Origin: Candidatus Komeilibacteria bacterium
GTDB taxonomy: Bacteria > Patescibacteriota > Patescibacteriia > UBA1558
Reading direction: 5' to 3'
NCBI GenBank assembly: GCA_048538275.1
Contig: JBLYPW010000002.1
Location: forward strand, 2,111-66,110
DNA: 64,000 nucleotides
The first letter of the stretch is position 1. Each line of letters starts with the position of its first letter. Shown piece after piece: positions 26,913 to 58,023 of this stretch. Under the pieces are notes generated by a model. It was not told the DNA's origin and did no database searches. It saw only the letters and a list, made by a program, of their open reading frames with translations. Position numbers and translations under genes: made by a program.

Positions 26913-26962
26913 CGGTAAATTATAGAAAACAGGGTCTATCTAACGATTAACCCTGTATTTTT

Positions 26963-27538
26963 ATGCCTAAAATTGAGCGAAATATTGAACCCGGCTCTAT
27001 TCATCATGTCTATAATCGGTCGGTAGAGAAAAGAACCATATTTTTTATTGACAGAGATTATCAATGGTTTTTAGAAAAAATAGCGTTTTATAAAGTTAAA
27101 TATAAGGTAAAAATCTTAGCTTTTGCGCTTTTGCCTAACCATTGGCATTTGTTAGTGCAGGAACAGGAAGTAGTCCAACCCCCGGCGTTGGCAACGCCGG
27201 GGGTTGTTAGAATGATTGGAGATTTATGCAATGCCTATGTCAAGCGCTTCAACATAGCTCATGATCGCTCTGGACCCTTATTCCAGGGCAGATTTAAGTC
27301 AAAAGTGGTTGAAGATGAGCATTATTTGCAGAATCTTATTAATTATATCAATCTCAATCCAGTAAAACATAAAATAGTAAAGAATATTAAAGACTGGGAT
27401 TATACGTCACATTGGCACTACTTGGAGAAAGGGAAATTTGCTTTGGTTGATAAGAGTGAGTTTATAGATTTTGCGGTTTATAAGGCTGGCGTGGTTGATT
27501 ATTTACGAAAATTTGAGAATATTGAGGAAGAATTTTAA
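26963..27538 (+). CDS. IS200-like HuH tyrosine transposase, REP-associated (RAYT-A, 191 aa). It carries an in-frame REP hairpin insertion.
   Basis: N-terminus MPKIERNIEPGSIHHVYNR. HuH motif LLPNHWHLLV. C-terminal Y motif HYLQNLINYINLNPVKHKIV. REP caacccccggcgttggcaacgccgggggttg at 27177-27207 is translated as QPPALATPGVV. REP hairpins flank the gene at 26865-26895 and 27542-27572. Confidence 0.8.
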   Translation: MPKIERNIEPGSIHHVYNRSVEKRTIFFIDRDYQWFLEKIAFYKVKYKVKILAFALLPNHWHLLVQEQEVVQPPALATPGVVRMIGDLCNAYVKRFNIAHDRSGPLFQGRFKSKVVEDEHYLQNLINYINLNPVKHKIVKNIKDWDYTSHWHYLEKGKFALVDKSEFIDFAVYKAGVVDYLRKFENIEEEF

Positions 27539-27541
27539 ATC

Positions 27542-27572
27542 CAACCCCCGGCGTTGCCAACGCCGGGGGTTG
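27542..27572. repeat. REP family 1 hairpin immediately 3' of RAYT-A.
   Basis: caacccccggcgttgccaacgccgggggttg, a perfect inverted pair. Confidence 0.85.
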
Positions 27573-27673
27573 GATTACACAAAATCGTATTTTTCTGTTA
27601 TAATTTAATCGTAAAATTACAAAAAAAGAGGGCCATGTTAAAAGGTTTTTTGACGTGGCTTTTTATAATATAG

Positions 27674-30600
27674 ATGTTGAATATAAAGGAAAAATTTAAA
27701 ATCAACCCCCGGCGTTGGCAACGCCGGGGGTTGGCAACACCCGGTGTTGGAATCCGCATCGCTTCTATTCTTTTTATTGCTATCATTATAGTAGCTGGTT
27801 TAATTTATATATTCAATAAACCTCAATCAGTAGAAGCAACTTGGTGGAACCCCACCTGGAGTTATAGACAAAGCATTGCTGTCACCAATGGCTCAGGCGG
27901 TACTTTAACAGATTTTCAAGTTGAGATATTGCAGAATGTTGATTTGAGTAGCCTTAATACAGCCGGCAAGCTGCAAGCAGATTTGGCTGATTTACGTTTT
28001 ACCGATATAAATCATAGAGTTCTGCCTTATTGGATAGAAGATAATACTATCTCTTCTGTAAATGCTTGGATTAAAATACCATCTATTCCTACAACCGGTA
28101 CTACTATTTATATGTATTATGGGAATTCATCGGCTAGTGATGCGCAGGATGGATTTAATACATTTTTGGCTTTTGATGATTTTGAAGACGGGGATATGAG
28201 TACATGGGAGCATATAGATGCTTGGGGAGATAATCTTGGCACATGGACAGAGTCTGGTGGCGTTATGCGTGCTGATTGTAATACTTTATGGTGCCATGAA
28301 ACTGCCTGGCAACATGTAAATTTTCAAACCGATAATGTTGCTTTAGCTGCCAAACATCGTTGTTTGGGTAATAATTCTGACGGTGAAGGTGGGATAGGTA
28401 TTTCTTTTACAGGCGGATGGGAAAATTATAGCACACAACAAACAATGCTTATCCGTAATGATAATCAAGATATCTGGGCAAGTGGAGGCACCCCTAGTAC
28501 CACCGTGTCGTTTACTAATACATGTAATACATGGTATAAAACCGAAATTAGAGATATTGCTGGCTCTAATGCAACTTTATGGGTGGATGATGTACAAAAA
28601 CATGCCACCACTAATAGTGTTACTACTGTAAACGGTAGGCCAGCTTTATCCCAGTATAAGGGTGATATTGAATACGACTGGGTATATTATAGAAAATTAG
28701 CATCCACTCAGCCTACAGCCGGCAGTCCAGCCACTGAAGAAAACGCCCCCGGCCCAGTGGGTTATTGGAATTTTAATGAGGGATTTGGCACAACAGCTTA
28801 TGATAGTACAGGTTATGGTAATGATGGGACAATTTCAGGGGCAACCTGGGTGCAGAATGGTAAAAGTGGTAGAGCTTTGAGTTTTAACGGGAGTAGTGAT
28901 TATATTATAACTAATAATGATATTGGAATATCAGGAACAGATGAAAGGACAGTTAGTTTATGGGTAAAAACTACATCAGCAAATGTTACTACAAATTCTA
29001 TTATTTTTGGAATGGGCACCGCTGCTGCTAATAATTTATTTGCCATGAGAACTGATTCTACTACTGATACTTGGAGATTTACAGATGCATCAGTTGCAAG
29101 AGAAACAAATGTCTCAACAACTGGTCAGTGGCAACACATAGTAACTATACTTGATTCTAGTCAACAATTAAGCGTTTATATTGATGGAATTATAACAGAT
29201 GTAAATAATATTGATTTGTCATCACAAGATACTACTAATGCTCCTTTCTATATTGGTTCAAGTGTTAATAATACTTTGTATTTTGATGGTCTCATAGACG
29301 AAGTACGCATCTACGACCGTGCCTTGTCAGCCAATGAAGTGAAACAGCTTTATAATCAAAATGCCGGCAGCTTTAATGTCGGGCAGTCTGGTATATCCAC
29401 TTCTTGCGCTGATCAATTGGCAAAAAATCCCGGCTCTAAGTCTGGTGTTTATACTATTGATCCTGGCTATGGAGTTGATCCTTTTGATGTTTATTGTGAT
29501 ATGGAGACTGACGGTGGGGGGTGGACTATGGTGGCATCAAATCATTCTAGTAGTACTTTAATACCCTCTGGCACTGGCAGAAATTCTGCTGAGTATGAGT
29601 TGGATAGGAATGGCAGTTATACTGCGTTAGGGACACCTTCTCCAAATACGGATTATATTATTGGCGCAGCTATTAATATATTGGAATGGGATGAAGCAAG
29701 GATTACTATGTTTGGGTTTGATTCAACTAGTTCATCGTATGTTTATCCCACAAATTTGGGAGATTATGCAGATGTTAAATGGGATGTTCCTGGTTCTGAT
29801 GCCGGACGGTTGGATCAGGCCGTTGCGGCAGCTAGTGTGTCCATATTTAGGAATAATAATTTTGCAAGTTTTCATCCAAGTGTTGCTTATTTCTATGTAG
29901 ATGGAGTACATCATGACTATATGCCAGATAGTGTATATGGCGCTAATGCAAATCAGGCAACAGTTGGAGGTGTTGGTAGAAGTGGCACGACTGTTACCGG
30001 TACATACTTTGGGCATGGTGTAACTGAGGGAAGTTTTGAGGGTTCATATGGCCCAGGAAACACGGCGAGTAAAAATGCCTCTGGGTATGTTACGTGGGTT
30101 AGAAGTAATACTGTGACTAGTTCATCTGGCGTTGCTCTAGACCTCCCCTTTGAAGCCGTATCCGGCTCTACGACTTATGATATTTCTGGTAATGAAAATA
30201 ATGGCACCATTACCGGCGCTACTCACAAAACTTCAGCCAATTGTAAGGTGGGGCGGTGTTTTGAGTTTGATGGGAGTGGTGATACTATAACCATAAGTGA
30301 TAGCACCAGTATTAATGCTATAGGGCAAGCTATGACGCTATCTGCCTGGGTTAAACCATCAGCATTTACAACTAGTTATAGGTCGGGGATTATCACAAGA
30401 CGTAATGGCAATGCAGGTATTGGATTTTATTTGGCCGGTGATTTAGATCCTGCTACATCAGGAACAATGGAGGCTATGATTGGGGGCGGGGCAAATGTTG
30501 CAGCTAATACAGCCTTACCACTAGATGAGTGGTCTTATACAACTATGGTCGCAAGCGGCGACAGTATTTCTTTTTATTTGAATGGAGTAGATGATGGTGG

Positions 30601-33412
30601 CGGCGTTTTGACCGGTTGGACCTGGGATGATGGTGTGGCTGTTCAGATTGGTGGAGTTACTGGTACAGCTGGTTATACAATATTTGGATTTATTGATGAG
30701 CCTAAAATATTCAACCGCGCTCTTACGCAAAGAGAAATTATGATGGAAATGAACGCTGGTAAACATCAGCCAGTATTAGATTTAGGTTTTGATGAAGGTG
30801 GAGGCAGTACAGCTTATGATAAGTCAGTTTTAACTAATAATGGTAGTATTTCTGGAGCTGATTATAAAACTCCGGAAAATTGTGTAAGTGGAAGTTGTTT
30901 GGATTTTAATGGTAGTAGTGATCATGTACGGATTACAGATAGCAGTTCTGGTGATGATTTGGATTTTGGTAGTGACAGCTTTACCGTTTCAGCTTGGGCT
31001 AATATTGATGAAGGAACAACTGCGCGTGGCACAGTACTATCCAAATCTAATGATGTGACTATGCCGGATACAGTTGGCTATTGGTTGATGGGACCCTATA
31101 CTGGTTGGTCTAGCACCTTTGCTTTTGCTACCAACGATGGTTCAGGTAGCACATTTTATGTTAGTGATGGTGATACTAGCTTGATAGATGGTAAGTGGCA
31201 TCACGTTGGTTTGATTTTAAATAGAGATACGGGCATTATGACGCTTTATGAAGATGGTCAGTCAGTTGACACGGCTGATATTAGTTCTTTGGGTAGTATT
31301 TCTAATAGTTATAATTTTGGTGTAGGTAGTTATCAAGGTGGTGGCAGTAATGTGATCAATGGCAAAATAGATGAAGTTAAAATGTATAATTATGCTTTAA
31401 CAGAAGCAGAATTAAAACAAGAATACACTCAATCCAAAGGTCAGTTTGGGCGGACTAGTGCGGTGGGAGAAAAAACCACGCCCGGAGCTTCTTGCGCGGA
31501 TATTTTAGCGAAAAATTCTCAGGTCGCAGATGGATATTATTGGATAGATCCTAATGGCGGATCACAATCAGACGCTTTTAAGGTTTATTGTGATATGACC
31601 ACTAATGGCGGGGGCTGGACATTGATTGAGTCATTTTCTTTAGCTAATAAAGCAAGTTTTACATCATTTTTGGGCAACGTGTCTATAAATGAGGATGATC
31701 CGACTCAAATAGATAATTATAGATTATCTAAGACTAGAATGGATAATTTAAATGGCGTTTCAACACAATGGCGCTCAACCTGTCAAATGAATCAGGATCC
31801 TACTAGAGATTATGCAATATCTAATAAATCAGATACAGATATAATGACATTTGCAATTACTGATAGTTGCCGGGTTATGGTTGATGTAAATGTCCGTGGT
31901 TATAATTGTCAAAATTGTCAGGCTAAGTGGTGGGGTTATGCCGCAGGTAGTAAGCATACCCACTTAGATTCAAGCATTAATAATGCTGTGTGTGGTGTAG
32001 GATCGCTTGACTCAGACGCTGGCTCTGTAAGTTCAGAAGATAATTGGGGTTATTATGCTTATACAAATCCTGAATTTCAATGTACTGCTTCTAGCGATTC
32101 AACAACAAATTGGTGGATGGGAGGTCTTGGCAGTAGTATTTCTACCGGCCCTGTTCTTGACATGACTTTTGATAAATATGTTGGTGGAGTTTATTTGGAT
32201 GAGAGTGGCAACGGACATAATACTACTACTATTAGCAGTGATCCTGAATGGAAAACAACAGTCAATTGTAAGTCGGGCAGATGTGTAGATTTTGATGATA
32301 GTTCGGATTGGGTTAGGATTGCAGCAAATTCAGTATTTGATTTTACAGGCGACTATACTTTAGAGGCGTGGATTAAGCCAAATTCTGTCGTGGGTTATCG
32401 TCACGGCATTATGGGTAAATATTCTAGCGATGGTTGGGGTTTGAATTTGCATGAAGATAAGGTGAATTTTGGTAGTCATACTTGTAGTAACTTTAGTGGT
32501 TCAACTAGTTTGCAAGCAGGTGCTTGGTATCATGTGGTGGGTATTTATAAAGAAACAGGTGATGATGAACTTTATGTGAATAGTCGTTTAGATGGAACTG
32601 GTAATTTAACCGACGGGAATTGTAATGCTGATACTAGCGATGTTGTTATTGGTACTTATAGAACTTCAACAACAGAAGAGTTTAATGGGATCATTGATCA
32701 GGTAAAAATATACGATAGAGCTTTAACACAGAGAGAAATATCTATGAACTATAATGGCGGTCAACCGATTGGTTGGTGGCGACTGGATGAGGGGGCGGAT
32801 AATTTATGTTCTGACGGCAAAGACGCTTGTGATAGTTCCGGTGAAGGGAATAATGGGACAGAAAGTGGAAATATTACTTGGATAACAGATACTTCTTTGT
32901 GTAAACAGGGTGGTTGTGCTAGTTTTGACGGGAGCGGGGATTATATACAAACTAGTTTATCCCAAACTTTTAATTCAACGACTATATCTTTCTGGATGGA
33001 TTGGGATAATTATGGAACAGATACTATCGATTTTATAGGAGAAAGTGAGGATAGTAGTAAAGTAATGGTTCACACCGGCGGTGGATCAGGGATAAATGGT
33101 ATAAGGTTTCATTTTGCTTCAAGCGCTTCAGGGTTTGATACAATAGGTATAATCGGCTCTGGTTGGAATCATTATTTAGTCACTTATGATAATGGGAGTA
33201 TAAAAATTTATAAAAACGGAGTTTTGGAAAATTCCGCAACGGTGACAGATGAGTCTGCTACTATAAGTTCTTGGGATATTGGCAGAAGAAGTAATAGTGA
33301 TGGTTATCATTTTAATGGTTCTTTAGATGATATCCGCATCTACAACTACGCCCTCACCGATAAACAGGTTAAAGAAGTATATAATCAAGGGTTGATTCAT
33401 TTTACCCCGTAA
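27674..33412 (+). CDS. Giant paralog 5 (1,912 aa): REP-encoded leader, TM anchor, DUF2341-like domain, LamG-like modules and two fibrinogen-C-terminal-like domains.
   Basis: Leader MLNIKEKFKINPRRWQRRGLATPGVG is encoded by the REP inverted pair plus palindrome at 27705-27752. TM helix IASILFIAIIIVAGLIYIF. DUF2341-like block TWWNPTWSYRQSIAVTN...GKLQADLADLRFTD...IYMYYGNSSA. Fibrinogen-like motifs CADQLAKNPGSKSGVYTIDPGYGVDPFDVYCDMETDGGGWTMVA at ~29395-29560 and CADILAKNSQVADGYYWIDPNGG..FKVYCDMTTNGGGWTLIE at ~31480-31640. LamG ends DEVRIYDRALSANEV, DEVKMYNYALTEAEL, DDIRIYNYALTDKQV. Confidence 0.8.
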   Translation: MLNIKEKFKINPRRWQRRGLATPGVGIRIASILFIAIIIVAGLIYIFNKPQSVEATWWNPTWSYRQSIAVTNGSGGTLTDFQVEILQNVDLSSLNTAGKLQADLADLRFTDINHRVLPYWIEDNTISSVNAWIKIPSIPTTGTTIYMYYGNSSASDAQDGFNTFLAFDDFEDGDMSTWEHIDAWGDNLGTWTESGGVMRADCNTLWCHETAWQHVNFQTDNVALAAKHRCLGNNSDGEGGIGISFTGGWENYSTQQTMLIRNDNQDIWASGGTPSTTVSFTNTCNTWYKTEIRDIAGSNATLWVDDVQKHATTNSVTTVNGRPALSQYKGDIEYDWVYYRKLASTQPTAGSPATEENAPGPVGYWNFNEGFGTTAYDSTGYGNDGTISGATWVQNGKSGRALSFNGSSDYIITNNDIGISGTDERTVSLWVKTTSANVTTNSIIFGMGTAAANNLFAMRTDSTTDTWRFTDASVARETNVSTTGQWQHIVTILDSSQQLSVYIDGIITDVNNIDLSSQDTTNAPFYIGSSVNNTLYFDGLIDEVRIYDRALSANEVKQLYNQNAGSFNVGQSGISTSCADQLAKNPGSKSGVYTIDPGYGVDPFDVYCDMETDGGGWTMVASNHSSSTLIPSGTGRNSAEYELDRNGSYTALGTPSPNTDYIIGAAINILEWDEARITMFGFDSTSSSYVYPTNLGDYADVKWDVPGSDAGRLDQAVAAASVSIFRNNNFASFHPSVAYFYVDGVHHDYMPDSVYGANANQATVGGVGRSGTTVTGTYFGHGVTEGSFEGSYGPGNTASKNASGYVTWVRSNTVTSSSGVALDLPFEAVSGSTTYDISGNENNGTITGATHKTSANCKVGRCFEFDGSGDTITISDSTSINAIGQAMTLSAWVKPSAFTTSYRSGIITRRNGNAGIGFYLAGDLDPATSGTMEAMIGGGANVAANTALPLDEWSYTTMVASGDSISFYLNGVDDGGGVLTGWTWDDGVAVQIGGVTGTAGYTIFGFIDEPKIFNRALTQREIMMEMNAGKHQPVLDLGFDEGGGSTAYDKSVLTNNGSISGADYKTPENCVSGSCLDFNGSSDHVRITDSSSGDDLDFGSDSFTVSAWANIDEGTTARGTVLSKSNDVTMPDTVGYWLMGPYTGWSSTFAFATNDGSGSTFYVSDGDTSLIDGKWHHVGLILNRDTGIMTLYEDGQSVDTADISSLGSISNSYNFGVGSYQGGGSNVINGKIDEVKMYNYALTEAELKQEYTQSKGQFGRTSAVGEKTTPGASCADILAKNSQVADGYYWIDPNGGSQSDAFKVYCDMTTNGGGWTLIESFSLANKASFTSFLGNVSINEDDPTQIDNYRLSKTRMDNLNGVSTQWRSTCQMNQDPTRDYAISNKSDTDIMTFAITDSCRVMVDVNVRGYNCQNCQAKWWGYAAGSKHTHLDSSINNAVCGVGSLDSDAGSVSSEDNWGYYAYTNPEFQCTASSDSTTNWWMGGLGSSISTGPVLDMTFDKYVGGVYLDESGNGHNTTTISSDPEWKTTVNCKSGRCVDFDDSSDWVRIAANSVFDFTGDYTLEAWIKPNSVVGYRHGIMGKYSSDGWGLNLHEDKVNFGSHTCSNFSGSTSLQAGAWYHVVGIYKETGDDELYVNSRLDGTGNLTDGNCNADTSDVVIGTYRTSTTEEFNGIIDQVKIYDRALTQREISMNYNGGQPIGWWRLDEGADNLCSDGKDACDSSGEGNNGTESGNITWITDTSLCKQGGCASFDGSGDYIQTSLSQTFNSTTISFWMDWDNYGTDTIDFIGESEDSSKVMVHTGGGSGINGIRFHFASSASGFDTIGIIGSGWNHYLVTYDNGSIKIYKNGVLENSATVTDESATISSWDIGRRSNSDGYHFNGSLDDIRIYNYALTDKQVKEVYNQGLIHFTP

Positions 33413-33434
33413 AGTAACGAAGTTACTAACGGGG
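33405..33434. repeat. Palindrome family 2 (ccccgtaaagtaacgaagttactaacgggg), overlapping the stop codon of paralog 5.
   Basis: Nested inverted repeat with inner stem gtaacgaagttac. Related copies at 39306-39336 and 44821-44935. Confidence 0.75.
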
Positions 33435-33462
33435 TGAGGGATAATGGTTATAACATATCAAT

Positions 33463-44798: not shown

Positions 44799-44820
44799 TT
44801 ATTTAATAAGTAGGTGATGA

Positions 44821-44935
44821 ATCCTGTAAAGTAGCGAAGCTACTAACGGGATGAACCCTGTAAAGCAGTGAAGCTACTAACGGGGTGAACCCTGTAAAGT
44901 AGTGAAGCTACTAACAGGGTGAACCACGGCGCGGT
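44821..44935. repeat. Three tandem copies of a ~36-bp unit from palindrome family 2 (ccctgtaaagtagtgaagctactaacggggtgaa), immediately 3' of the minus-strand RAYT-B.
   Basis: Visible direct repeats. Each carries the inner hairpin gtagYgaagctac. Confidence 0.8.
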
Positions 44936-44941
44936 TTCTTT

Positions 44942-45619
44942 TTAAAATTTATTATTAATATTATTTCTATCTTGCGCCCAATTTGCAGGATTATTTTTGA
45001 TATATTCCCTGATTCTATCTAAATCATTATCATCTCTAATAATGTGTTCGTAATAATTGGATTGCCAGGCAAACCCCTGTAAACCAATATCATGAATGCG
45101 TTTGGTACATGCCGATTTGAATGAACGAACAATATTACCCAACGACGTTTTATTTAACATGGGATTGTATTTTCCGGTAATGCCACCCGCCATTTTGGCA
45201 CCCACCGCCATTTTGGCACCCACCGCCGTTTTGGCACCCACCGCCATTTTGGCACCCACCGCCATTTTGGTACCCACCGCCGTAGAGACGCGATTAATCG
45301 CGTCTCTACGGCGGTGGGTTGGTTCATTCAAATCGGCATTAATGACAAATATGACATGAATATGGTTAGGCATGACCATATATTCATCCAATGAAATATT
45401 ATTAAAATGTTTATTCATATTTGATAAATTTTGTTTTATTATCTCACCGTATTTATTTAATATCATTTGATCATGAATTACCTGACCAAAATACTCAATT
45501 CTATTTTTAGTACAAATGGTCACAAAATAATTTCCCGGTTGAGAATAATCATAATCTAATATCCTATTGGATGTGAGCCTATATTTTTCTTGGTATAATT
45601 TTGGGTTATATTGGGGCAT
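44942..45619 (-). CDS. RAYT-B (225 aa), an IS200-like/RAYT-type Y1 HuH transposase on the minus strand. An 18-bp microsatellite (AVGAKM x5) and a 44-bp perfect palindrome are inserted in frame.
   Basis: HuH motif MVMPNHIHVIF. C-terminal block GFAWQSNYYEHIIRDDNDLDRIREYIKNNPANW, which I recall as typical of TnpA_REP. Tandem ggcacccaccgccatttt units at ~45183-45290. Palindrome ccaccgccgtagagacgcgattaatcgcgtctctacggcggtgg at ~45282-45328. Confidence 0.8.
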   Translation of the reverse strand: MPQYNPKLYQEKYRLTSNRILDYDYSQPGNYFVTICTKNRIEYFGQVIHDQMILNKYGEIIKQNLSNMNKHFNNISLDEYMVMPNHIHVIFVINADLNEPTHRRRDAINRVSTAVGTKMAVGAKMAVGAKTAVGAKMAVGAKMAGGITGKYNPMLNKTSLGNIVRSFKSACTKRIHDIGLQGFAWQSNYYEHIIRDDNDLDRIREYIKNNPANWAQDRNNINNKF

Positions 45620-45855
45620 AATAAAAAAGGGTTAGTATTGAAACCGACCCTGTTTACCCCGTTTAACGTGGTTTGCCACATTTGATGAGGTTTGTCTATT
45701 GTGATTTATAGGTTTAGTTTATACTTTCAGTTATTTTTGTCAAAGCTTTTACTCGCCGGGGGTTGGAACATTATCCCCAGTTGAAGGTTTTATAAAATTG
45801 TTGTATAATACAGCTACAAATTGAGGGCTCAATTTATTATTAAAAAATTGTTAAT

Positions 45856-51190: not shown

Positions 51191-51193
51191 TTT

Positions 51194-53005
51194 ATGTCCG
51201 ACACTAATAAAGAAAAAGAATTAGACATGATACGTCAGGCTTTTGGTAATAGCGATTATCGTATGACCAAGCCGGTGGCTAATAAACCGATTTTAGATAA
51301 GCGGCGTCGTTTATTACCATGGTTGGCGGCAGCTTTGGTAGTCAGCTTGGCTTTGACTATTTATTTTGGCATCAATACTATTCAAGGGACTGATCAGTCA
51401 ATTTTACTCAATATTGATTCTAGCTCAGAAGTGGTTGCCGGCAAACAAGTAAGTTATACTATTCATTATCAAAATGAAGATAAGGTGCCCATGACTCAGT
51501 TGTCTTTGAGTATTATTTATCCGGACGGCTTTACTTTCCAATCCGCTTCAACGGTACCAGCTAATGATGGTAAAAATTATTGGGAATTGCCGGATTTGCC
51601 GGCTCGTACAGCTAGTGCTATACAGGTGAACGGTTATTTAATAGGAGAGCAGGGTGAAAATAAAAATATTAAGGTGGAACTAGCTTATGAACCGGCTAAT
51701 TTTTCTTCCACTTTTGTGGCAGCGGCAGAATTTTCTCAAACTATTACTGATTTGGCTGTAGATATGTGGGCAGATGCGCCCAGCGAAGCCTTGCCGGGAG
51801 AATCTATTGGTTTGAAAATACATATTTTGAATCATCAGACTGACAATTGGCAACCATTGGCCGTAGAACTCACTTTGCCGGATCAAATTATGCTTTTGGA
51901 TGCTGACCCGGCCATTGAGTCAGATAATTTAATTCCTACTTGGCATATAGATAGTTTAGACCCCGAGCAAGAGAAAATTATTATGTTGCGGGCTGAAATA
52001 ATAGATGGGATCACTTTGGATAGATTGATTTGGCATTTACAGCTTTGGTCCGGTCTTGATAAGGATAAAAGAATATTATTGGATGATGATAGCGCCCAGA
52101 TTGATATTGCTAAACCTCAGGTGGTCGCTAGCTTAGCTTTGGCTGATGATAAAAATTTGATAAATTGGGGGGATATTATAAATTATCAATTAAAAATAAC
52201 TAATACGGGAGAATATACATTACATGATGCTACGCTTAGTTTATTATTGGATAGTGATTTTATAAATTGGCAAAACTGGCAAGCCAGCACTGGTATGCGT
52301 CGGGAAGATAATAAGGTGATTTGGACGACAGACCATCCCAAAGTTGGAGATAAGTTAAAGAATTTTGCGCCTGGCGATGAAATCAATATAAAGATTGGTG
52401 CCAAGTTACAAAATAAACCGATTGACGCGAATACTTTAACCTCAGCTGATTTATTAGTGCGCAGTGTGGCAAAATTGTCGGTACCGATTGGTCAGGGTGA
52501 ATATGTATCGGCCAGTGATACCATAACCGTGCAAATCGGGCAATTGCTTAGTTTGACCATGCGGCCATATTATTATGATGGTAGTGGTCAGGCGGTGGGT
52601 AGTGGGGCCATGCCACCGCAAGTAGGTTTGCCTACTGTTTATATCATTGATTGGCAATTAGCAGTCGGTCCTCAAGATTTGCAGTCTATTAGCTTATCCT
52701 CTTCCTTGCCCCCAGGAGTTGATTGGGTGGGTAGCAGCGGTGACGCGTCGGTAGAAATTAATAATTTGACGAAAGAAATTTCTTTATCTTTTGATAATTT
52801 ATCAGCCAGTAGTGTTTTAGCGGGAAGCTGGCAAGTACAGCTAAAACCCGAGGCCGATGATGTGGGGCAGTGGCCAATATTATTAAATCCTTGGCATATG
52901 CAAGCTAATGCTGGCGAGGTAGTTTGGCAAGGACAGACAGATGCTATCAATAGTCGTTTATTGACAGATAGCAAGGCCGCCAATAATGATAAAGTTATAA
53001 AGTAA
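51194..53005 (+). CDS. Hypothetical membrane-anchored extracytoplasmic protein (603 aa).
   Basis: Single N-terminal TM helix LLPWLAAALVVSLALTIYFGI, then a hydrophilic beta-rich sequence. No motif recognised. Confidence 0.6.
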   Translation: MSDTNKEKELDMIRQAFGNSDYRMTKPVANKPILDKRRRLLPWLAAALVVSLALTIYFGINTIQGTDQSILLNIDSSSEVVAGKQVSYTIHYQNEDKVPMTQLSLSIIYPDGFTFQSASTVPANDGKNYWELPDLPARTASAIQVNGYLIGEQGENKNIKVELAYEPANFSSTFVAAAEFSQTITDLAVDMWADAPSEALPGESIGLKIHILNHQTDNWQPLAVELTLPDQIMLLDADPAIESDNLIPTWHIDSLDPEQEKIIMLRAEIIDGITLDRLIWHLQLWSGLDKDKRILLDDDSAQIDIAKPQVVASLALADDKNLINWGDIINYQLKITNTGEYTLHDATLSLLLDSDFINWQNWQASTGMRREDNKVIWTTDHPKVGDKLKNFAPGDEINIKIGAKLQNKPIDANTLTSADLLVRSVAKLSVPIGQGEYVSASDTITVQIGQLLSLTMRPYYYDGSGQAVGSGAMPPQVGLPTVYIIDWQLAVGPQDLQSISLSSSLPPGVDWVGSSGDASVEINNLTKEISLSFDNLSASSVLAGSWQVQLKPEADDVGQWPILLNPWHMQANAGEVVWQGQTDAINSRLLTDSKAANNDKVIK

Positions 53006-53012
53006 TAATTTT

Positions 53013-54212
53013 ATGATTGGTGACTGGCGAGTATTAAAAAAATCAACCATTTCATCCGCGCGCAGAGGGCGTTTGGTCACGGGGCATGGTATTATCCAAA
53101 CCCCATTTTTTATGCCTATTGCCACCAAGGGCACGGTTAAAAGTTTAAGTGGTGATGATATGTCAGCTTTAGGTGCGCAGATTGTTTTGGCTAATACTTA
53201 TCATCTATATTTGCGTCCGGGATTAGAAGTATTGCGTCGGGTCGGCGGTTTGCACAATTTTATGAATTGGTCTGGGCCGATATTGACTGATTCAGGCGGT
53301 TTTCAGGTTTTTTCCTTGGCTGCCAGCGTGCAGCGAGTAGGCGTAAATAAAACCGGCCAAGCAGTTAAGGTAGATAGAAAAATCAGTCAACGCGGAGTAG
53401 AATTTCGTTCTTTCTGGGATGGATCAAAGCACTTATTTACCCCAGCCAAAGTTTTACATATTCAAAAAATAATTGGCTCGGATATAGCGATGGTGCTTGA
53501 CGAATGCGTGGGCAATCCCGCCACGCGCGAGCAAGCAGAGCAAGCTCTGCGCCGCACCACGCAGTGGGCGGGCCAGTCCCTGGCCGCTCGCGCTAAGTAT
53601 TTGGACTCTGCCCAATTATTATTTGCCATTGTGCAGGGATCAACTTATCAAGATTTACGTTTAACTTCCGCGCAAGAGTTGATTGCTTTGCAAGGGAGCG
53701 GTAAAAAAGTTTGGGATGGCTTTGCTATTGGCGGATTAGCAGTGGGTGAGAGTAATAAACAAATGTATCAAGTGCTTGATTATACGGTGCCGGCCTTACC
53801 AAGTGATAAACCGCGGTATTTGATGGGAGTTGGTTATCCTGATAATATCATTGAGGCTGTCAGACGAGGAGTTGATATGTTTGATTGTGTTATTCCAACT
53901 CGCGAGGCACGGCACGGACGATTGTATAAGTGGCTTTATTCAGATATAGCCAGTACTATCAAGGCTATTGTTGGAGGAAAACAATTTTATACCACTATCA
54001 ATATAAACAATGCTAGCTTTGCTCAGTCTTCAGTGATTTTACGACCAAACTTTTCTGCCAGTTGGTTGGATAATTATTCTTTAGCCTATTGGCATCATTT
54101 GTTTAAAGTAGGTGAGCCGCTAGCGCTACGTCTGGCTACTTGGAATAATGTTGCCTTTTACTTACAGTTAATGGCGCTATTGCGGCGAGCCATAAAGGAG
54201 GATCGTTTATGA
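53013..54212 (+). CDS. tgt: Queuine tRNA-ribosyltransferase.
   Basis: ARRGRLVTGHGIIQTPFFMPIATKGTVKSL...IVLANTYHLYLRPG...GGLHNFMNWSGPILTDSGGFQVFSL...MVLDEC...GFAIGGLAVGE...VIPTREARHG is the classic Tgt signature. Confidence 0.85.
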   Translation: MIGDWRVLKKSTISSARRGRLVTGHGIIQTPFFMPIATKGTVKSLSGDDMSALGAQIVLANTYHLYLRPGLEVLRRVGGLHNFMNWSGPILTDSGGFQVFSLAASVQRVGVNKTGQAVKVDRKISQRGVEFRSFWDGSKHLFTPAKVLHIQKIIGSDIAMVLDECVGNPATREQAEQALRRTTQWAGQSLAARAKYLDSAQLLFAIVQGSTYQDLRLTSAQELIALQGSGKKVWDGFAIGGLAVGESNKQMYQVLDYTVPALPSDKPRYLMGVGYPDNIIEAVRRGVDMFDCVIPTREARHGRLYKWLYSDIASTIKAIVGGKQFYTTININNASFAQSSVILRPNFSASWLDNYSLAYWHHLFKVGEPLALRLATWNNVAFYLQLMALLRRAIKEDRL

Positions 54213-54487
54213 ATATAATTATTTTTGCAGTTGCTTTACTTTTACTTTGGGTTGGTTTTTTATTGCGCGGCCGGCAAGTGGTTTGGCAGGTAGCGGAATT
54301 AAACCCCCGTCAACAAGCTTGGTGGCGTGGCCAACTAGCTTTGGCTAATTATTGTTTATGGGCAGCAGCGTTTTCCTTTGTCTGCGGTATTATTTGGTGG
54401 TGGTGGCCGGTTGTCGTATGGCTTTGGTTGGGCGTATTGCTGATTGGATTGTGGTATATTACTTATATTAGTTATTCCAAAAAATAA
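54209..54487 (+). CDS. Small integral membrane protein (92 aa).
   Basis: Two or three hydrophobic W-rich helices. Its start overlaps the tgt stop (ATGA). Confidence 0.5.
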   Translation: MNIIIFAVALLLLWVGFLLRGRQVVWQVAELNPRQQAWWRGQLALANYCLWAAAFSFVCGIIWWWWPVVVWLWLGVLLIGLWYITYISYSKK

Positions 54488-54509
54488 GTAAAAATGGTAT
54501 AATTTTTAC

Positions 54510-54872
54510 ATGATAACAAAAGCCGAAGCAATTTACGCTACCCGTTATTTATTGTGGGATTTTGTACGCGATATAATATATTTTCCTATTTGGTGGTATA
54601 GTGCGGGCCTGATTTTGGCTGGACGTTGGTTTAGCCGCGGCTTGCGTGCTGGTACGCAACGTTTAGCGCTGGTAATTTTGTTCCGTTATTGGTTTAAGCC
54701 GATGTATGGCCAAACTGATTGGCAGGGCAAGATTATCAGTTTTTTTATGCGCACCGTTACTTTGCTTTGGAAATTTTTCTTGTGGATGATTTGGCTAGCT
54801 ATTATGTTGGCATTATTGGCGGCCTATATTATTATTTTGCCAGCCATTCTTTATGAATTGTTTTTTGTTTAA
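54510..54872 (+). CDS. Small integral membrane protein (120 aa).
   Basis: Hydrophobic helices. A candidate extended -10 TGGTATAAT lies at 54495-54503, just upstream. Confidence 0.5.
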   Translation: MITKAEAIYATRYLLWDFVRDIIYFPIWWYSAGLILAGRWFSRGLRAGTQRLALVILFRYWFKPMYGQTDWQGKIISFFMRTVTLLWKFFLWMIWLAIMLALLAAYIIILPAILYELFFV

Positions 54873-54875
54873 ATT

Positions 54876-57497
54876 ATGAATAAACAGCCAGCACAAACTA
54901 TAAATTTGGAAGGTTATGATATTTATTGGGGCAAAAGCTATTCTACTCTATCTGTTTTGGTAGATCGTATTCATCATGGTATCCGGCTGGTATGGCTAGG
55001 AATATTATGGTTATTGGTAGCGGCCGGTTGGGTGGTCTTTATTTGGCATATATATAAACTGATTGACGCGCATTATGACTTTTTCTTAGTCAGTAGCTGG
55101 CAGGGCGATCATTTGCATTGGTGGTGGTTTGGTATTTTAGTGATGTTATATATTTTTTATTATCATCAAAAAGATAAAGGTGGTCGTTATACGGTTCTTC
55201 AGCCGGGAGATATTGATAAACATAAAAAGCGAGAGTCTTTGGATATTAGTTTTGCTTTTAGTCGGGCTAGTCATAAGGCAATGGAGCGGGCTTATGAAAT
55301 CGCTCACCAAGATAGTGGCAGCGCTATTCAATCTTTACATATTTTTGCCTCTTTATTACATGATGAGCGGGTTGGTTTGATTTTGCATCGTCTTGGTGTT
55401 GCTAGTGTAGATATACAGCAAACCACAGATCGTCTCATAAAAAATGACGGACTGATTTCGCCGACCAGTAGTTTGAATTTGGATGACAATGCTAGCCATG
55501 TAGTTTTATCCGCTTATTTAACCGCTTATCAACGTGGTGATAGCCAAGTAGAGATTCCTGATTTATTGTCAGCGGTGGTAGAAAGGGATGTTAAAGTCAA
55601 GGAGATTCTATTTGCTTATAAATTAACTGAAGATCAAATTAATAATGTCATAGCTTGGCTGCGTATTCAGCAGGCTTTGGCGGATCGTTATCGTCGCTAT
55701 CAGTATAAAGCCGGGTTTCGCCCCAAAGGAACAATGGACAAGGCTATGACCGCGGTAGCCACCCCCACCCTAGATCAATATAGTGATGATTTTACTGCTT
55801 TGGCTAAGGCTGGTTATTTTGGCCTGTGCGTGGCACGCGAAAAAGAATTTAATGAGCTATATAATATTTTAGAAGGTGGTGGAGCGCCATTATTGGTCGG
55901 TAATCCTGGCGTGGGGGTGGATAGTATAATTGAAGGTTTGGCTAATCGGATGGCGGCAGATGAAGTGCCGGCAGTTTTACAAGACAAACGCTTAGTGTCT
56001 TTGCATATATCAAAATTAGTAGCCGGCGCCACTACGGCCGGTGAATTGGAAGAGCGGGTAATGCGCCTGGTGTTTGAAATTAGTCGGGCTGGCAATATTG
56101 CATTATATATCAATAATTTACATAATTTGGTGGGCATTGGTGCGGCTGGTGCCAGTAATGTTGATTTGGCTGATGTACTGACGGAAAGTTTGATGAAACG
56201 CGGTATGTTGGTGCTAGGATCTACGACACCAAATGATTTCCGTAAATATATAGAGCATAGTGCTTTTAATAATTATTTTGATAAATTAGAAATAAATGAA
56301 CCTGATATAAATCAAGCCATTCAAATGCTAGAGGCCAATATTGGCAGTATAGAACATAAACAGGAAGTATTTTTTTCTTATGAAGCTTTAGATCGGGCGG
56401 TGGTATTGTCACAGCGTTATATTCCGGATCATTTTTTGCCCAGCAAAGCGATAAATATAGTAGAAGAAGTAGCCGCTCGTGTACGCAGTCAGCGAGGTAA
56501 GGATCAGTTGGTTAGCGGTCAGGATGTAGCCGAGCTTATTTCTAGTAAGACAGACATACCGCTGACTGCAGTGACCAGTGATGAATCGGCCAAATTATTA
56601 AATCTAGAGGAATTAATTCATCAAAGTATCGTCAATCAAAGTGAAGCCGTGAAGGTAGTATCTGCTGCCTTGCGGCGAGCGCGGGCTGAACTGCGCGATA
56701 CTAAGCGACCGATTGCCAGTTTCCTTTTTTTGGGTCCGACGGGCGTTGGTAAATCAGAGTTAGCCAAGACATTGGCAGCGGTTTATTTTGGCGGTAGCGA
56801 ACGTATGATCCGTTTGGATATGTCAGAGTATCAAGAAAAAAATAGTTTACAGCGCATGTTAGGTACTCCCGGAAGCAATGAGGGCGGTATTTTAACCGAA
56901 GCAGTGCGTGAATCTCCTTATTCTATTTTATTATTAGATGAAATAGAAAAAGCCCATCCTGATATTTTAAATATTTTTTTACAGGTAATGGAGGATGGAA
57001 GATTGACGGATGTGACTGGCCGGACGGTTGATTTTACCAATCTAATTATTATTGCTACTTCCAATGCGGGCACCAATTATATTCAAGATCAGACTAAGGC
57101 CGGTGCTACGGCAGAACAAATAAAAAATGCCTTATTAGAATCAGAATTACGTCCTTATTTTCGTCCTGAGTTTTTGAATCGTTTTGATAATATTGTTGTG
57201 TTCAAGCCATTAACCCAGGATCACATTGAACAGATCGCTGTTTTATTATTAAACGGTCAAAAAAAGCGCTTGGCTACCAAGGGAATATTTTTGGAAGCTA
57301 CACCGGCGGCAATTAAAGAGTTGGCGATTGCTGGCTATGATCCAAAATTTGGCGCTCGTCCTTTGCGTCGCGTTATTCAAGAGCAGGTGGAGAACGCCTT
57401 GGCCAACTTTTTATTAAAAGGCAAAATAGATCGTCGCGATAAGGTGATATTAGAAGCTGGTGGACAGATTCGCGTGGAAAAAGCCCAAAAATTGTAA
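54876..57497 (+). CDS. Clp/Hsp100-family AAA+ ATPase (ClpA/B/C-like, 873 aa). It has N-terminal hydrophobic segments and a degenerate first Walker A.
   Basis: The first ~130 aa contain two hydrophobic helices (LVWLGILWLLVAAGWVVFIW, WWWFGILVMLYIFYY). Clp-N-like AIQSLHIFASLLHDERVGLILHRLGV. D1 Walker A reads GNPGVGVDSIIEGLANR instead of GxPGVGKTAIVEGLA, so the lysine is missing. D2 is intact: GPTGVGKSELAKTLA, LLDEIEKAHPDILNIFLQVMEDGRLTD, IIIATSNAG. Confidence 0.75.
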   Translation: MNKQPAQTINLEGYDIYWGKSYSTLSVLVDRIHHGIRLVWLGILWLLVAAGWVVFIWHIYKLIDAHYDFFLVSSWQGDHLHWWWFGILVMLYIFYYHQKDKGGRYTVLQPGDIDKHKKRESLDISFAFSRASHKAMERAYEIAHQDSGSAIQSLHIFASLLHDERVGLILHRLGVASVDIQQTTDRLIKNDGLISPTSSLNLDDNASHVVLSAYLTAYQRGDSQVEIPDLLSAVVERDVKVKEILFAYKLTEDQINNVIAWLRIQQALADRYRRYQYKAGFRPKGTMDKAMTAVATPTLDQYSDDFTALAKAGYFGLCVAREKEFNELYNILEGGGAPLLVGNPGVGVDSIIEGLANRMAADEVPAVLQDKRLVSLHISKLVAGATTAGELEERVMRLVFEISRAGNIALYINNLHNLVGIGAAGASNVDLADVLTESLMKRGMLVLGSTTPNDFRKYIEHSAFNNYFDKLEINEPDINQAIQMLEANIGSIEHKQEVFFSYEALDRAVVLSQRYIPDHFLPSKAINIVEEVAARVRSQRGKDQLVSGQDVAELISSKTDIPLTAVTSDESAKLLNLEELIHQSIVNQSEAVKVVSAALRRARAELRDTKRPIASFLFLGPTGVGKSELAKTLAAVYFGGSERMIRLDMSEYQEKNSLQRMLGTPGSNEGGILTEAVRESPYSILLLDEIEKAHPDILNIFLQVMEDGRLTDVTGRTVDFTNLIIIATSNAGTNYIQDQTKAGATAEQIKNALLESELRPYFRPEFLNRFDNIVVFKPLTQDHIEQIAVLLLNGQKKRLATKGIFLEATPAAIKELAIAGYDPKFGARPLRRVIQEQVENALANFLLKGKIDRRDKVILEAGGQIRVEKAQKL

Positions 57498-57501
57498 TTC
57501 A

Positions 57502-57537
57502 ATTCAACCTTCAAGGTTTAGACCTTGAAGGTTGAAT
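57502..57537. repeat. Palindrome family 4 (caaccttcaaggtttagaccttgaaggttg), 5' flank of RAYT-C.
   Basis: Near-perfect inverted repeat. A second copy lies at 58011-58048. Confidence 0.85.
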
Positions 57538-57606
57538 TTGACCAATACGCAGCGGTGTGTTAAGTTCCAAATAACAGGGTTGATTTAATTATTGACCCGT
57601 TTTTTT

Positions 57607-58023
57607 ATGCCTAATGTAGCACGTAATTTTTTTCCTGGTAGCATTCACCATGTTTATAATAGGGCTAATGCAGGATTGATTATTTTTAGAAATGACAGGG
57701 ATTATGCTTATTTTTTGCATAGAATTAGTGTTTATAGGAAAAGAACCAGAGTTCATATCATCACTCAAGCCGTGTTACCAAACCATTGGCATTTTCTTTT
57801 GCAAGAGCCTAATGATGTGATAGGCAATAATAAATTACCCGCTATTTCAAAATTTGTGTCCTTATTATCTAATTCTTATACTAGATATTTTCAGTTAAAA
57901 TATGGTTATTTGGGGAGAATATTCCAGGGGCAGTTTAAGTCTAAGTGGGTTGAAGATGATGATTATTATGCTTATTTAATTGATTATATAACTCATAATA
58001 AGTTGCATCACCGCCAACCTTGA
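57607..58023 (+). CDS. RAYT-C, an IS200-like HuH transposase (about 138 aa from the ATG at 57607; the ORF track begins at the TTG at 57592). The 3' palindrome possibly truncates its C-terminus.
   Basis: MPNVARNFFPGSIHHVYNRA parallels the RAYT-A N-terminus. HuH motif VLPNHWHFLLQE. C-terminal YAYLIDYITHN. The stop is created inside the family 4 palindrome. Confidence 0.75.
   Translation: MPNVARNFFPGSIHHVYNRANAGLIIFRNDRDYAYFLHRISVYRKRTRVHIITQAVLPNHWHFLLQEPNDVIGNNKLPAISKFVSLLSNSYTRYFQLKYGYLGRIFQGQFKSKWVEDDDYYAYLIDYITHNKLHHRQP

What the first reader, a model, noticed from the sequence alone, without database searches (positions are those of the whole stretch)
26922..57609. A conserved hairpin plus T-run immediately upstream of the start codon of all three divergent RAYT genes
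The three RAYT starts are preceded by alignable sequences. A (26928-26965): AACAGGGTCTATCTAACGATTAACCCTGTATTTTTATGCC. B (reverse complement of 45617-45657): AACAGGGTCGGTTTCAATACTAACCCTTTTTTATTATGCC. C (57573-57609): AACAGGGTTGATTTAATTATTGACCCGTTTTTTTATGCC. Each can form an AGGGT/ACCCT stem followed by 5-7 T residues and then ATGCC. The three proteins and their flanking palindrome families are otherwise quite different, so this nucleotide-level conservation implies a function. It could be a subterminal left-end hairpin of an IS200/IS605-type element, which TnpA enzymes of that family recognise. It could also be a terminator-like attenuator that keeps transposase expression low.
Basis: seen in the sequence. 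Interest (0 to 1): 0.6.

Follow-up and report, generated by a model that had tools for sequence, protein, structure and literature searches.

The report
Terminator-like leader hairpin before RAYT genes
Each of the three RAYT (domesticated transposase) genes in this Komeilibacteria window has a conserved RNA hairpin plus U-run between its promoter and start codon; it is most likely a built-in transcription brake, not a transposon end.

Summary
AACAGGGT-N14-ACCC-T-run-ATGCC occurs three times in 64 kb, each time directly before a RAYT start codon, against 0.02 expected by chance.

I collected 25 related leaders from other Patescibacteria. They precede 18 A-type RAYTs, 4 unrelated B-type RAYTs and 3 yraN genes.

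- **Structure:** the hairpin is kept by compensatory changes. 84% of cells pair, against 28-53% in slid controls, and 8 of 11 pairs change on both sides. G·U pairs outnumber C·A mismatches 36 to 6, which points to the coding strand.
- **U-run:** it always follows the stem, even where the ATG lies 19-33 nt further on.
- **Promoter:** a TTGACA-16/18-TAnnnT promoter-like site lies upstream in all 25.
- **Independent support:** a covariance model found new copies in loci it was not built from, before RAYT or yraN genes apart from one ordinary gene-end terminator. It found nothing else in the window.

Best reading: an intrinsic-terminator-shaped 5' leader that attenuates RAYT transcription.

The IS200/IS605 left-end-hairpin idea fails on three counts:
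- there is no right-end copy;
- REPs are the flanking repeats;
- the motif also precedes yraN.

No Rfam family matches. I rate it a new member of a known kind, of moderate interest. All of this is inferred from sequence; no transcript ends were mapped.

The parts
26928..26962 (+). Leader A: hairpin (arms ACAGGGT 26929-26935 / ACCCTGT 26950-26956, upper stem ATC/GAT) followed by ATTTTT, ending at the ATG of RAYT-A
   Evidence: -13.5 kcal/mol, z -5.4; model hit, E 3e-5
26893..26921 (+). Promoter-like site TTGACA-17-TAAATT. Its -35 hexamer overlaps the 3' end of the upstream REP. The -10 hexamer ends 6 nt before AACAGGGT, so the predicted transcript start is at the foot of the hairpin.
26963..27538 (+). 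RAYT-A gene (191 aa, HUH motif HWH and catalytic Tyr present), with an in-frame REP copy at 27172-27206
26861..26895 (.). REP palindrome upstream of RAYT-A. Identical copy at 27538-27572 downstream of the gene.
45620..45654 (-). Leader B: AACAGGGT..ACCCT hairpin (AGGGT 45651-45647 / ACCCT 45632-45628, upper stem GGT/ACT) followed by TTTTTATT, ending at the ATG (45619-45617) of RAYT-B
   Evidence: -8.9 kcal/mol; E 1.5e-5
45716..45743 (-). Promoter-like site TTGACA-16-TAAACT, about 60 nt upstream of leader B
44942..45619 (-). RAYT-B gene (225 aa, a different RAYT clade, 51% identical to the L172 B-type RAYT). It carries a 31-aa in-frame insertion of tandem 18-nt repeats plus a palindrome.
57573..57606 (+). 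Leader C: hairpin GGGTTGAT/ATTGACCC (57577-57598) followed by G and T7, ending at the ATG (57607) of RAYT-C
   Evidence: called terminator-like by the scan; E 2.7e-4
57538..57566 (+). Weaker promoter-like site TTGACC-17-TAAGTT. The -10 hexamer ends 6 nt before AACAGGGT.
   Evidence: it falls below the threshold of the scan
57607..58023 (+). RAYT-C gene (about 138 aa from the ATG). The reading frame ends inside REP palindrome 58011-48, so the gene is probably truncated.

Best explanation
The motif is the transcribed 5' leader of the RAYT mRNAs. It is an RNA hairpin of 8-13 pairs, GC-rich at the foot and AU-rich above, followed at once by a run of 5-8 U. That is the shape of an intrinsic (Rho-independent) terminator, placed between a sigma-70-type promoter and the start codon.

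Proposed mechanism (inferred, not shown): RNA polymerase starts at a good promoter whose -35 hexamer is partly built from the end of the neighbouring REP. Most transcripts end in the U-run after 35-90 nt. Only read-through transcripts carry the RAYT reading frame. In the Komeilibacteria-type leaders the same U-run abuts the AUG, so it also forms the unstructured, Shine-Dalgarno-less ribosome landing region. The result is low expression of a DNA-cutting enzyme.

The leader is a lineage-specific family. It serves two unrelated RAYT clades, and yraN where yraN sits in the same gene cluster.
For: Shown by sequence analysis:
1. Three sites against 0.02 expected in the window.
2. 25 leaders from different genomes all fold into hairpins of about -8 to -17 kcal/mol.
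3. In an alignment of 22 leaders, 83.9% of cells pair, against 28-53% when the partner columns are slid. 8 of 11 pairs change on both sides. The covariation score is 0.456 against 0.278 in shuffles, reached by 0 of 500.
4. There are 36 G·U pairs against 6 C·A mismatches, so the structure works on the coding strand.
5. Most leaders have at least 5 T in the 8 bases after the folded stem. The run stays next to the stem in leaders whose ATG is 19-33 nt further downstream: L001 RAYT, L003 and L010-L013.
6. All 25 leaders have TTGACA(-like)-16/18-TAnnnT upstream, with an exact TTGACA in 21. The gap to the hairpin core is 5-9 nt in 11 leaders and 15-63 nt in 14.
7. In L003, L007 and window B the upstream neighbour is divergent. 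There the hairpin cannot be the terminator of an upstream gene.
8. Covariance models found copies they were not built from. Model R1 found those in L173 (before both a RAYT and yraN) and L172. Model R2 found those in L178 (two) and L179. E-values run from 2e-5 to 0.013.
9. The models found nothing else in the window at E below 0.1, except the reverse strand of site A.
10. A similar hairpin in L176 lies right after a stop codon, where it would act as an ordinary terminator.
Against: - No transcript ends were mapped, so promoters, start sites and termination are all predictions.
- I made the structural alignment by hand, guided by the hairpin, so the pair counts lean towards that structure.
- Hairpins A and B have internal mismatches and failed the simple terminator scan. 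They may terminate weakly.
- Most genes in this window lack a Shine-Dalgarno sequence and have AT-rich upstream regions. A T-rich stretch before an ATG is therefore not special in itself.
- The 5' arm AGG(G)TCG is much more conserved than a plain terminator needs. This could point to an additional partner.
- Simple descent does not explain why the same leader sits on two RAYT clades with no detectable BLASTP similarity.
Confidence: 0.55

Rival explanations
1. The leader is a conditional switch. A trans-acting factor (protein or small RNA) binds the conserved 5' arm AGG(G)UCG and prevents or promotes termination. RAYT genes and yraN-comM would then be co-regulated. Alternatively, the abundant short terminated RNA is itself the functional product.
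For: - The 5' arm is nearly invariant across genomes (G9 and G10 invariant, T11 and C12 at least 90%), while the 3' arm drifts.
- The promoter has a near-consensus -35 hexamer directly followed by a terminator, a layout typical of regulated leaders.
- The same leader is found on two unrelated RAYT clades and on yraN within one gene cluster.
- The IS200 5' UTR is known to be processed into a regulatory small RNA (title and abstract of PMC5435999, seen).
Against: - No alternative (antiterminator) pairing is conserved.
- In 11 leaders the hairpin starts at the predicted transcript start, leaving no upstream RNA to compete with it.
- Loop length and sequence are not conserved, so there is no ligand pocket.
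- The arm asymmetry follows from G-rich 5' arms tolerating C-to-U changes in the partner.
- No candidate factor was identified.
Confidence: 0.15
2. The hairpin acts only after transcription. It stabilises the mRNA 5' end and sets the rate of ribosome loading on the U-rich, Shine-Dalgarno-less start region. Termination plays no real part.
For: - The hairpin begins within a few bases of the predicted start site in 11 of 25 leaders.
- The U-run abuts the AUG in the Komeilibacteria-type leaders.
- The genome rarely uses Shine-Dalgarno sequences.
- In IS200, a 5' UTR stem-loop limits translation (PMC4513863).
Against: - In L001 RAYT, L003 and L010-L013 the U-run stays with the stem, 19-33 nt away from the ATG.
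- In 14 leaders the hairpin is 15-63 nt from the predicted start, too far to cap the 5' end.
- The hairpin does not cover the start codon.
Confidence: 0.13
3. The hairpin plus T-run is a landing pad or recombination hot spot. RAYT reading frames end up immediately 3' of it, as group IIC introns do after terminators. On this view it is a target, not part of the gene's own control region.
For: - In the Komeilibacteria-type leaders the ATG follows the T-run with no spacer, for both A-type and B-type RAYTs.
- In L172 and L179 a B-type RAYT sits between such a leader and yraN. In L173, L001 and L176 a similar leader directly precedes yraN.
- Window B's leader has an A-like 3' arm, while its L172 relative has a different one.
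- IIC introns are typically located after terminator motifs (abstract of PMC1702495).
Against: - No unoccupied copies exist in the 64-kb window.
- yraN itself follows the T-run with zero spacing, so the spacing belongs to the leader type, not to RAYT insertion.
- The inserted segment in L172 has no end structures: 17 nt separate the RAYT stop from the yraN ATG.
- A simpler account is that the yraN leaders are B-type RAYT leaders left behind after loss of the RAYT reading frame.
Confidence: 0.1
4. It is the subterminal left-end hairpin of an IS200/IS605-type element, recognised as single-stranded DNA by the Y1 transposase.
For: - The genes encode Y1 (HUH) transposase relatives.
- The hairpin lies just upstream of the gene and is asymmetric between strands, as top-strand transposon ends are.
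- IS200 has a hairpin/terminator in its left end (PMC4513863).
Against: - No matching right-end hairpin lies 3' of any RAYT in the window or in about 550 kb of loci.
- The flanking inverted repeats are REPs of three different families. One shared hairpin serving three RAYTs with different REPs is hard to reconcile with specific recognition.
- The hairpin lies downstream of the promoter. The IS200 terminator lies upstream of the transcript start.
- The motif also precedes yraN.
- The gene copies are divergent single genes, not identical element copies.
Confidence: 0.04
5. It is a double-stranded DNA operator: two inverted half-sites (ACAGGGT / ACCCTGT) bound by a dimeric repressor.
For: The sequence is an inverted repeat overlapping the predicted transcript start in leader A, with half-site centres 21 bp apart.
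Against: - The distance between the arms varies by more than 10 bp among leaders.
- Many pairs are G·U, which are mismatches in a DNA palindrome.
- The upper stem also covaries.
- The T-run is conserved, and in 14 leaders the site is 15-63 nt downstream of the promoter.
Confidence: 0.03

Closest known systems
IS200 left end: terminator hairpin (nt 12-34) plus the tnpA 5' UTR stem-loop (PMC4513863)
   Same: - The gene is from the Y1 (HUH) transposase family.
- It is kept at low expression by RNA structure at its 5' side.
- One of the structures is an intrinsic-terminator-type hairpin.
   Different: - In IS200 the terminator lies upstream of the transcript start (about nt 40) and blocks transcription coming from outside. 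Here the hairpin lies downstream of the predicted promoter and would act on the gene's own transcripts.
- IS200 hides a strong Shine-Dalgarno sequence in a second stem-loop and has an antisense RNA. Here there is no Shine-Dalgarno sequence and no second stem.
- There is no sequence similarity. Rfam IS200-related models such as STnc490 give no meaningful hit.
- The present leader also serves yraN.
Classical leader (attenuator) terminators of bacterial operons, from established knowledge (e.g. trp, pyr, and riboswitch expression platforms)
   Same: A GC-rich hairpin plus U-run lies between promoter and start codon, and read-through is needed for expression.
   Different: No leader peptide, antiterminator, aptamer or known binding-protein site was found. 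The U-run abuts the start codon, and in 11 of 25 cases the hairpin starts at the predicted 5' end of the RNA.
REP / REPIN palindromes, the substrates of RAYTs
   Same: Short GC-rich palindromes next to RAYT genes. The arms (GGTYG / YRACC) loosely resemble swapped REP arms (CAACC...GGTTG).
   Different: - Only one copy per RAYT gene, always on the 5' side and in one orientation.
- No GTAG or CGTC tag, an AT-rich upper stem, and an obligatory T-run.
- The true REPs of the three genes are different sequences that flank the genes on both sides.
Terminator motifs used as insertion sites by group IIC introns (PMC1702495)
   Same: A mobile-element-related gene sits immediately 3' of an inverted repeat followed by T's.
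   Different: No intron or retroelement is present. There is no evidence here that the RAYT genes moved to these sites by a targeted mechanism.

Membership tests
IS200/IS605 subterminal end hairpins | Related imperfect hairpins near both ends (left end and right end) of the element | tested here: not met
   Covariance models R1 and R2 find one copy per gene, always 5' of it, and none 3' of any RAYT.
IS200/IS605 subterminal end hairpins | Found only as part of a transposase-bearing mobile unit, present as near-identical element copies | tested here: not met
   The same leader precedes yraN in L001, L173 and L176. The three window genes are divergent: 44% identity for A and C, no BLASTP similarity for A and B.
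IS200/IS605 subterminal end hairpins | Bound and cleaved nearby by the Y1 transposase on single-stranded DNA | not testable with these tools
   This needs biochemistry.
Intrinsic (Rho-independent) terminator | Stable stem-loop with G-C pairs at its base | tested here: met
   MFE of about -8 to -17 kcal/mol. Core pairs are G-C or G·U in all 22 aligned leaders.
Intrinsic (Rho-independent) terminator | U-run immediately 3' of the stem | tested here: met
   The run directly follows the stem in all 25 leaders, with 5-7 T in the 8 bases after the folded stem in 23. It also does so where the ATG is 19-33 nt away.
Intrinsic (Rho-independent) terminator | RNA 3' ends form in the U-run | not testable with these tools
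   No transcriptome or in vitro transcription data are available.
5' leader attenuator | Lies between the promoter / transcript start and the start codon of the regulated gene | tested here: met
   A TTGACA(-like)-16/18-TAnnnT site lies upstream of all 25 leaders. This is a prediction only; start sites were not mapped.
5' leader attenuator | A competing antiterminator structure, leader peptide or bound factor that modulates termination | tested here: inconclusive
   No conserved alternative pairing was found. In some longer leaders a repeated GCGAT and an AAGAAAAG box could pair with the 5' arm or the U-run, but not consistently.
REP / REPIN | Many intergenic copies per genome, GTAG or CGTC tag at the foot, often inverted pairs | tested here: not met
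   There are only 3 copies in 64 kb, all at RAYT starts. There is no tag. The real REPs are other sequences.
Riboswitch or other described RNA family (Rfam 15) | Match to a curated covariance model | tested here: not met
   No hit at gathering score in the window or in 19 loci. Only chance-level hits appear at E up to 10 around the three sites.
Riboswitch or other described RNA family (Rfam 15) | Conserved unpaired nucleotides that form a ligand pocket | tested here: not met
   Loop length (3 to more than 13 nt beyond the common stem) and loop sequence vary freely.
RAYT (REP-associated tyrosine transposase), for the three genes | Y1_Tnp fold with HUH and catalytic Tyr, and flanking REPs | tested here: met
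   - Pfam PF01797 scores above its cutoff for A and B, and below it for truncated C.
- NCBIfam REP_Tyr_transpos is the best hit for all three, though below the equivalog cutoff.
- REPs flank A and C, and GTAG-type REPs lie 3' of B.

The most novel reading that the evidence does not exclude
The leader is a dedicated conditional antitermination switch. A strong promoter borne on the REP end drives mostly a 35-40-nt hairpin RNA. A lineage-specific factor that recognises the invariant 5' arm AGG(G)UCG decides when read-through occurs. Domesticated RAYT nucleases of two unrelated clades would then be co-regulated with the yraN-comM recombination genes in Komeilibacteria-like Patescibacteria. Alternatively, the short RNA itself serves the RAYT.
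Probability: 0.12. Interest if true: 0.65.

Novelty: new member of a known kind. Interest (0 to 1): 0.35.

Why it matters
How RAYT genes are expressed is essentially unstudied. The library searches found nothing on RAYT leaders. RAYTs are thought to be domesticated nucleases that maintain REP populations, so their dosage should matter.

A conserved leader with covariation support, shared by two unrelated RAYT clades, gives three things:
- a concrete, testable handle on RAYT control in uncultivated Patescibacteria;
- a small new candidate cis-regulatory RNA family that is absent from Rfam;
- a recurring RAYT - yraN - comM gene neighbourhood, which hints at a functional link between RAYTs and recombination or DNA-uptake genes.

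If it is only a constitutive attenuator, it is an ordinary solution already known from IS200, applied to a new gene family.

Tried and rejected
- **Rfam:** I searched at gathering score and at E up to 10 around all three sites and in 19 related loci. There was nothing at the leaders. An early idea from memory, that the motif resembles a preQ1-I-like mini-riboswitch, was dropped for three reasons: no model hit, a U-rich rather than A-rich tail, and unconserved loops.
- **Missing Shine-Dalgarno as a special feature:** dropped, because most genes of the window lack one.
- **Generic terminator scan over 60 kb:** counts were close to shuffle expectation, so it said nothing about how terminators normally look here.
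- **The search for related loci with a 27-sequence alignment:** failed because it had no conserved stretch. I redid it with 8 close sequences.
- **Distant RAYT relatives:** the genome and metagenome scans returned mostly distant RAYTs without the leader.
- **Extending the window:** the look-up through the RsmI gene failed because that product is not on record. The rest of the 200-kb contig could not be scanned.
- **Viral-contig pattern scans:** they gave seven hits, none followed by a RAYT reading frame. Two are plainly ordinary terminators.
- **Link to REPs:** I considered a link between the leader arms and the GTAG-type REPs next to RAYT-B, or REP 3' arms in general. The resemblance is only 6-8 nt and is not consistent across genomes.
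- **Chimeric start codons in L172** (RAYT-B swapped with yraN): rejected, because the N-termini are colinear with their relatives.

Full report
**1. The observation**

- Site A has AACAGGGT at 26928-26935, ACCCTGT at 26950-26956, ATTTTT up to 26962 and the ATG at 26963.
- Site B, on the minus strand, has AACAGGGT at 45654-45647, ACCCT at 45632-45628, TTTTTATT at 45627-45620 and the ATG at 45619-45617.
- Site C has AACAGGGT at 57573-57580, a stem at 57577-57598, G plus T7 up to 57606 and the ATG at 57607.

The pattern CAGGGT-N10-20-ACCC-N0-4-TTTTT hits only these three places, against 0.02 expected. Conservation begins sharply at AACAGGGT and ends at ATGCC.

The genes are Y1_Tnp / REP-associated tyrosine transposase relatives. 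The organism is a Candidatus Komeilibacteria MAG, since the RAYT-A protein is identical to an NCBI entry on a 200,731-nt contig. A and C are 44% identical. A and B have no significant BLASTP similarity. Their flanking palindromes belong to different families.

**2. Related sequences**

I fetched loci around relatives of RAYT-A. A related leader is present in every close relative I could fetch (38-68% identity). It is absent from roughly 150 more distant RAYT loci from Daviesbacteria, Saccharibacteria, Bacteroidota and others.

There are two forms.
- **Short form** (window A, B, C; L007-L009, L088, L089, L168-L170): a hairpin with a GC-rich foot and an AU-rich upper stem, followed by T5-8 and then directly by the ATG.
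- **Long form** (L003, L010-L013): the same foot (TAGGTCGC / GCGAYC) closes a 4-6-nt loop and T5-7 follows. The ATG comes 19-32 nt later, after a conserved AAGAAAAGCGA box.

**3. Structure**

All leaders fold into hairpins of about -8 to -17 kcal/mol. I built a structural alignment by hand, anchored on the GGU/ACC core, and passed it unchanged through the aligner. On 22 leaders and an 11-pair stem:
- 83.9% of cells form standard pairs, against 28-53% when the 3' partners are slid by 1-3 columns;
- 8 pairs show changes on both sides, for example G-C to A-U at the fourth pair and U-A to C-G at the core pair in L012;
- the covariation score is 0.456 against 0.278 in shuffles, reached by 0 of 500.

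Because I made the alignment with the hairpin in mind, these numbers lean towards it.

The independent check is the covariance model.
- Model R1 was built without them, yet found the leaders of L173 (before both a RAYT and yraN) and L172.
- Model R2 found three more in L178 and L179, at E from 2e-5 to 7e-5. Each lies immediately before a RAYT gene, and nothing else in those 24 kb scored below E 1.
- In the window the models hit only the three RAYT sites. The next best hit is the reverse strand of site A.

G·U pairs (36) far outnumber C·A mismatches (6) in the stem. The structure is therefore selected on the coding strand. That fits mRNA, but it would also fit top-strand DNA.

**4. Position relative to promoters**

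Every one of 25 leaders has a TTGACA(-like) hexamer, a 16-18-nt spacer and a TAnnnT hexamer upstream. The TTGACA is exact in 21. The scan tool also calls the sites for A (26893-26921) and B (45743-45716).

The -35 hexamer often overlaps the GGTTG end of the neighbouring REP. The -10 hexamer ends 5-9 nt before the hairpin core in 11 leaders, so the predicted start is at the foot of the hairpin. It ends 15-63 nt before the core in the other 14. The hairpin is therefore transcribed leader.

In L003, L007 and window B the upstream neighbour is divergent, so there the hairpin cannot be the terminator of an upstream gene.

**5. Why a terminator-type attenuator**

The U-run is attached to the stem in all leaders, and it remains attached where the ATG is 19-33 nt away. 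This ties the U-run to the hairpin rather than to the start codon, which is the defining geometry of an intrinsic terminator.

A sequence of the same family in L176 and L177 (AATAGGGTTG...TGACCCTG plus T7) sits about 20 nt after the stop codon of an unrelated gene and is followed by no reading frame. That is the position of an ordinary terminator.

My model follows. All steps after the sequence facts are inference.
- A good promoter fires, and most transcripts end in the U-run.
- Read-through transcripts are translated from a Shine-Dalgarno-less, U-rich start region.
- Lack of a Shine-Dalgarno sequence is normal for this genome, so it is not evidence in itself.

**6. Not a transposon end**

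- No second copy lies 3' of any RAYT.
- The genes are flanked by REPs: A at 26861-26895 and 27538-27572, C at 57501-57538 and 58011-58048, and B by three GTAG-type units at 44817-44919.
- The same leader serves RAYTs with three different REP families.
- The leader also precedes yraN (UPF0102 nuclease) in L001, L173-L175 and L176-L177.
- In IS200 the terminator hairpin (nt 12-34) lies upstream of the transcript start (about nt 40) and blocks outside transcription, and a second stem-loop hides the Shine-Dalgarno sequence (PMC4513863). Here the hairpin lies downstream of the promoter. The analogy is functional, not one of membership.

**7. The yraN copies and B-type RAYTs**

Related genomes share the order giant LamG gene - RAYT - yraN - comM.
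- In L172 and L179 the leader is followed by a B-type RAYT (51% identical to window B) and then directly by yraN-comM.
- In L178 a B-type RAYT elsewhere in the genome has the same leader.
- The yraN leaders of L173 and L001 (...AGTGATCTTGTTTTTTTATGCAAAC) closely resemble the B-type leaders (...AGTGAGTCTGTTTTTTTATGCAAAAA).

I infer that the yraN leaders are B-type RAYT leaders left in place after loss of the RAYT reading frame. The reverse remains possible: RAYT genes landing behind a pre-existing leader.

Across about 145 kb of Komeilibacteria-type sequence, the leader precedes 9 of 11 RAYT genes. Besides the three yraN genes, it precedes no other gene. The only other copy is the one gene-end terminator.

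**8. Other readings considered**

- **Riboswitch:** no Rfam match, and the loops are not conserved.
- **Duplex DNA operator:** the arm spacing varies by more than 10 bp and many pairs are G·U.
- **Pure translational or stability element:** contradicted by the leaders whose ATG is distant and by hairpins lying far from the predicted start.
- **Regulated switch with a trans factor:** not excluded. The 5' arm AGG(G)UCG is nearly invariant, although G-rich arms tolerate C-to-U drift in their partners, which explains much of the asymmetry.

**9. Verdict**

This is an undescribed, lineage-restricted leader family of a known kind, a terminator-type attenuator in front of a transposase-family gene. 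Searches of the paper library found no report of RAYT leaders. Interest is moderate. Its main value is as a testable handle on RAYT expression and as a pointer to the RAYT - yraN - comM neighbourhood.

Noticed in passing
window 27172-27206: A full REP palindrome (94% identical to the flanking REPs) sits in frame inside the RAYT-A reading frame, between the HUH motif and the Tyr region. The reading frame stays open (it encodes ..VVQPPALATPGVV..).
   Followed up: partly
window 45187-45319: RAYT-B carries five tandem 18-nt units plus a perfect 48-nt palindrome (45272-45319), all in frame. Together they make a 31-aa insertion relative to the L172 ortholog.
   Followed up: partly
window 58011-58048: The RAYT-C reading frame ends inside a REP palindrome, giving about 138 aa against about 190 in relatives. 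It is probably a REP-truncated gene that still keeps its leader.
   Followed up: no
window 44817-44919: Three tandem 34-nt GTAG-type REP units (AGTAGC-GAA-GCTACT cores) lie between the stop of the giant gene and the stop of RAYT-B. Their outer arms CCCTGT/ACAGGG resemble the leader arms ACAGGGT/ACCCTGT. This may be chance.
   Followed up: partly
window 27623-27660; L173 about 3090-3130; L179 about 3545-3585: A different conserved terminator-like hairpin (GGCCATGTT...ACGTGGC plus T5-7) lies about 8-14 nt before the ATG of the giant gene at 27674, after a TGTTATAAT promoter-like site. It travels with that gene in L173 and L179, so terminator-shaped leaders may be a habit of this lineage.
   Followed up: partly
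window 26893-26898 and many loci (L001, L003, L010, L169, L173): The -35 hexamer TTGACA of the RAYT promoter-like sites overlaps the GGTTG 3' end of the upstream REP. The REP end supplies part of the promoter.
   Followed up: partly
L001, L172, L173-175, L176, L179: The gene order giant LamG protein - RAYT - yraN (UPF0102) - comM-like Mg-chelatase ATPase recurs, with different RAYT clades in different positions. One database protein (P0125, 311 aa) appears to be a RAYT-B/YraN fusion call.
   Followed up: partly
L003, L008-L013, L089, L168 (upstream of the RAYT ATG): A conserved box AAGAAAAGCGAT lies after the hairpin in some leaders, before it in others, and on both sides in L011. REP copies are inserted between the box and the hairpin in L009, L011, L089 and L168.
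   Followed up: no
window, all gene starts: Only 2 of 26 gene starts (54209 and 58130) have an obvious AGGAGG-type Shine-Dalgarno sequence. The rest have AT-rich upstream regions.
   Followed up: partly
window 114-44798: The window holds an array of very large genes (1,093 to more than 2,700 aa). Orthologous neighbours in L172 and L176 carry LamG / Laminin_G_3 domains. REP copies lie between several of these genes.
   Followed up: no
L176 13075-13110; L172 12630-12670: A conserved palindrome ACCATAAAG...CTTTACACTTTATGGT lies upstream of a merR-like gene. It is probably that gene's operator.
   Followed up: no
L007 923-1311; L089 802-905: A tmRNA gene and a SAM-I riboswitch lie close to the RAYT loci in two related genomes (Rfam gathering hits).
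   Followed up: no
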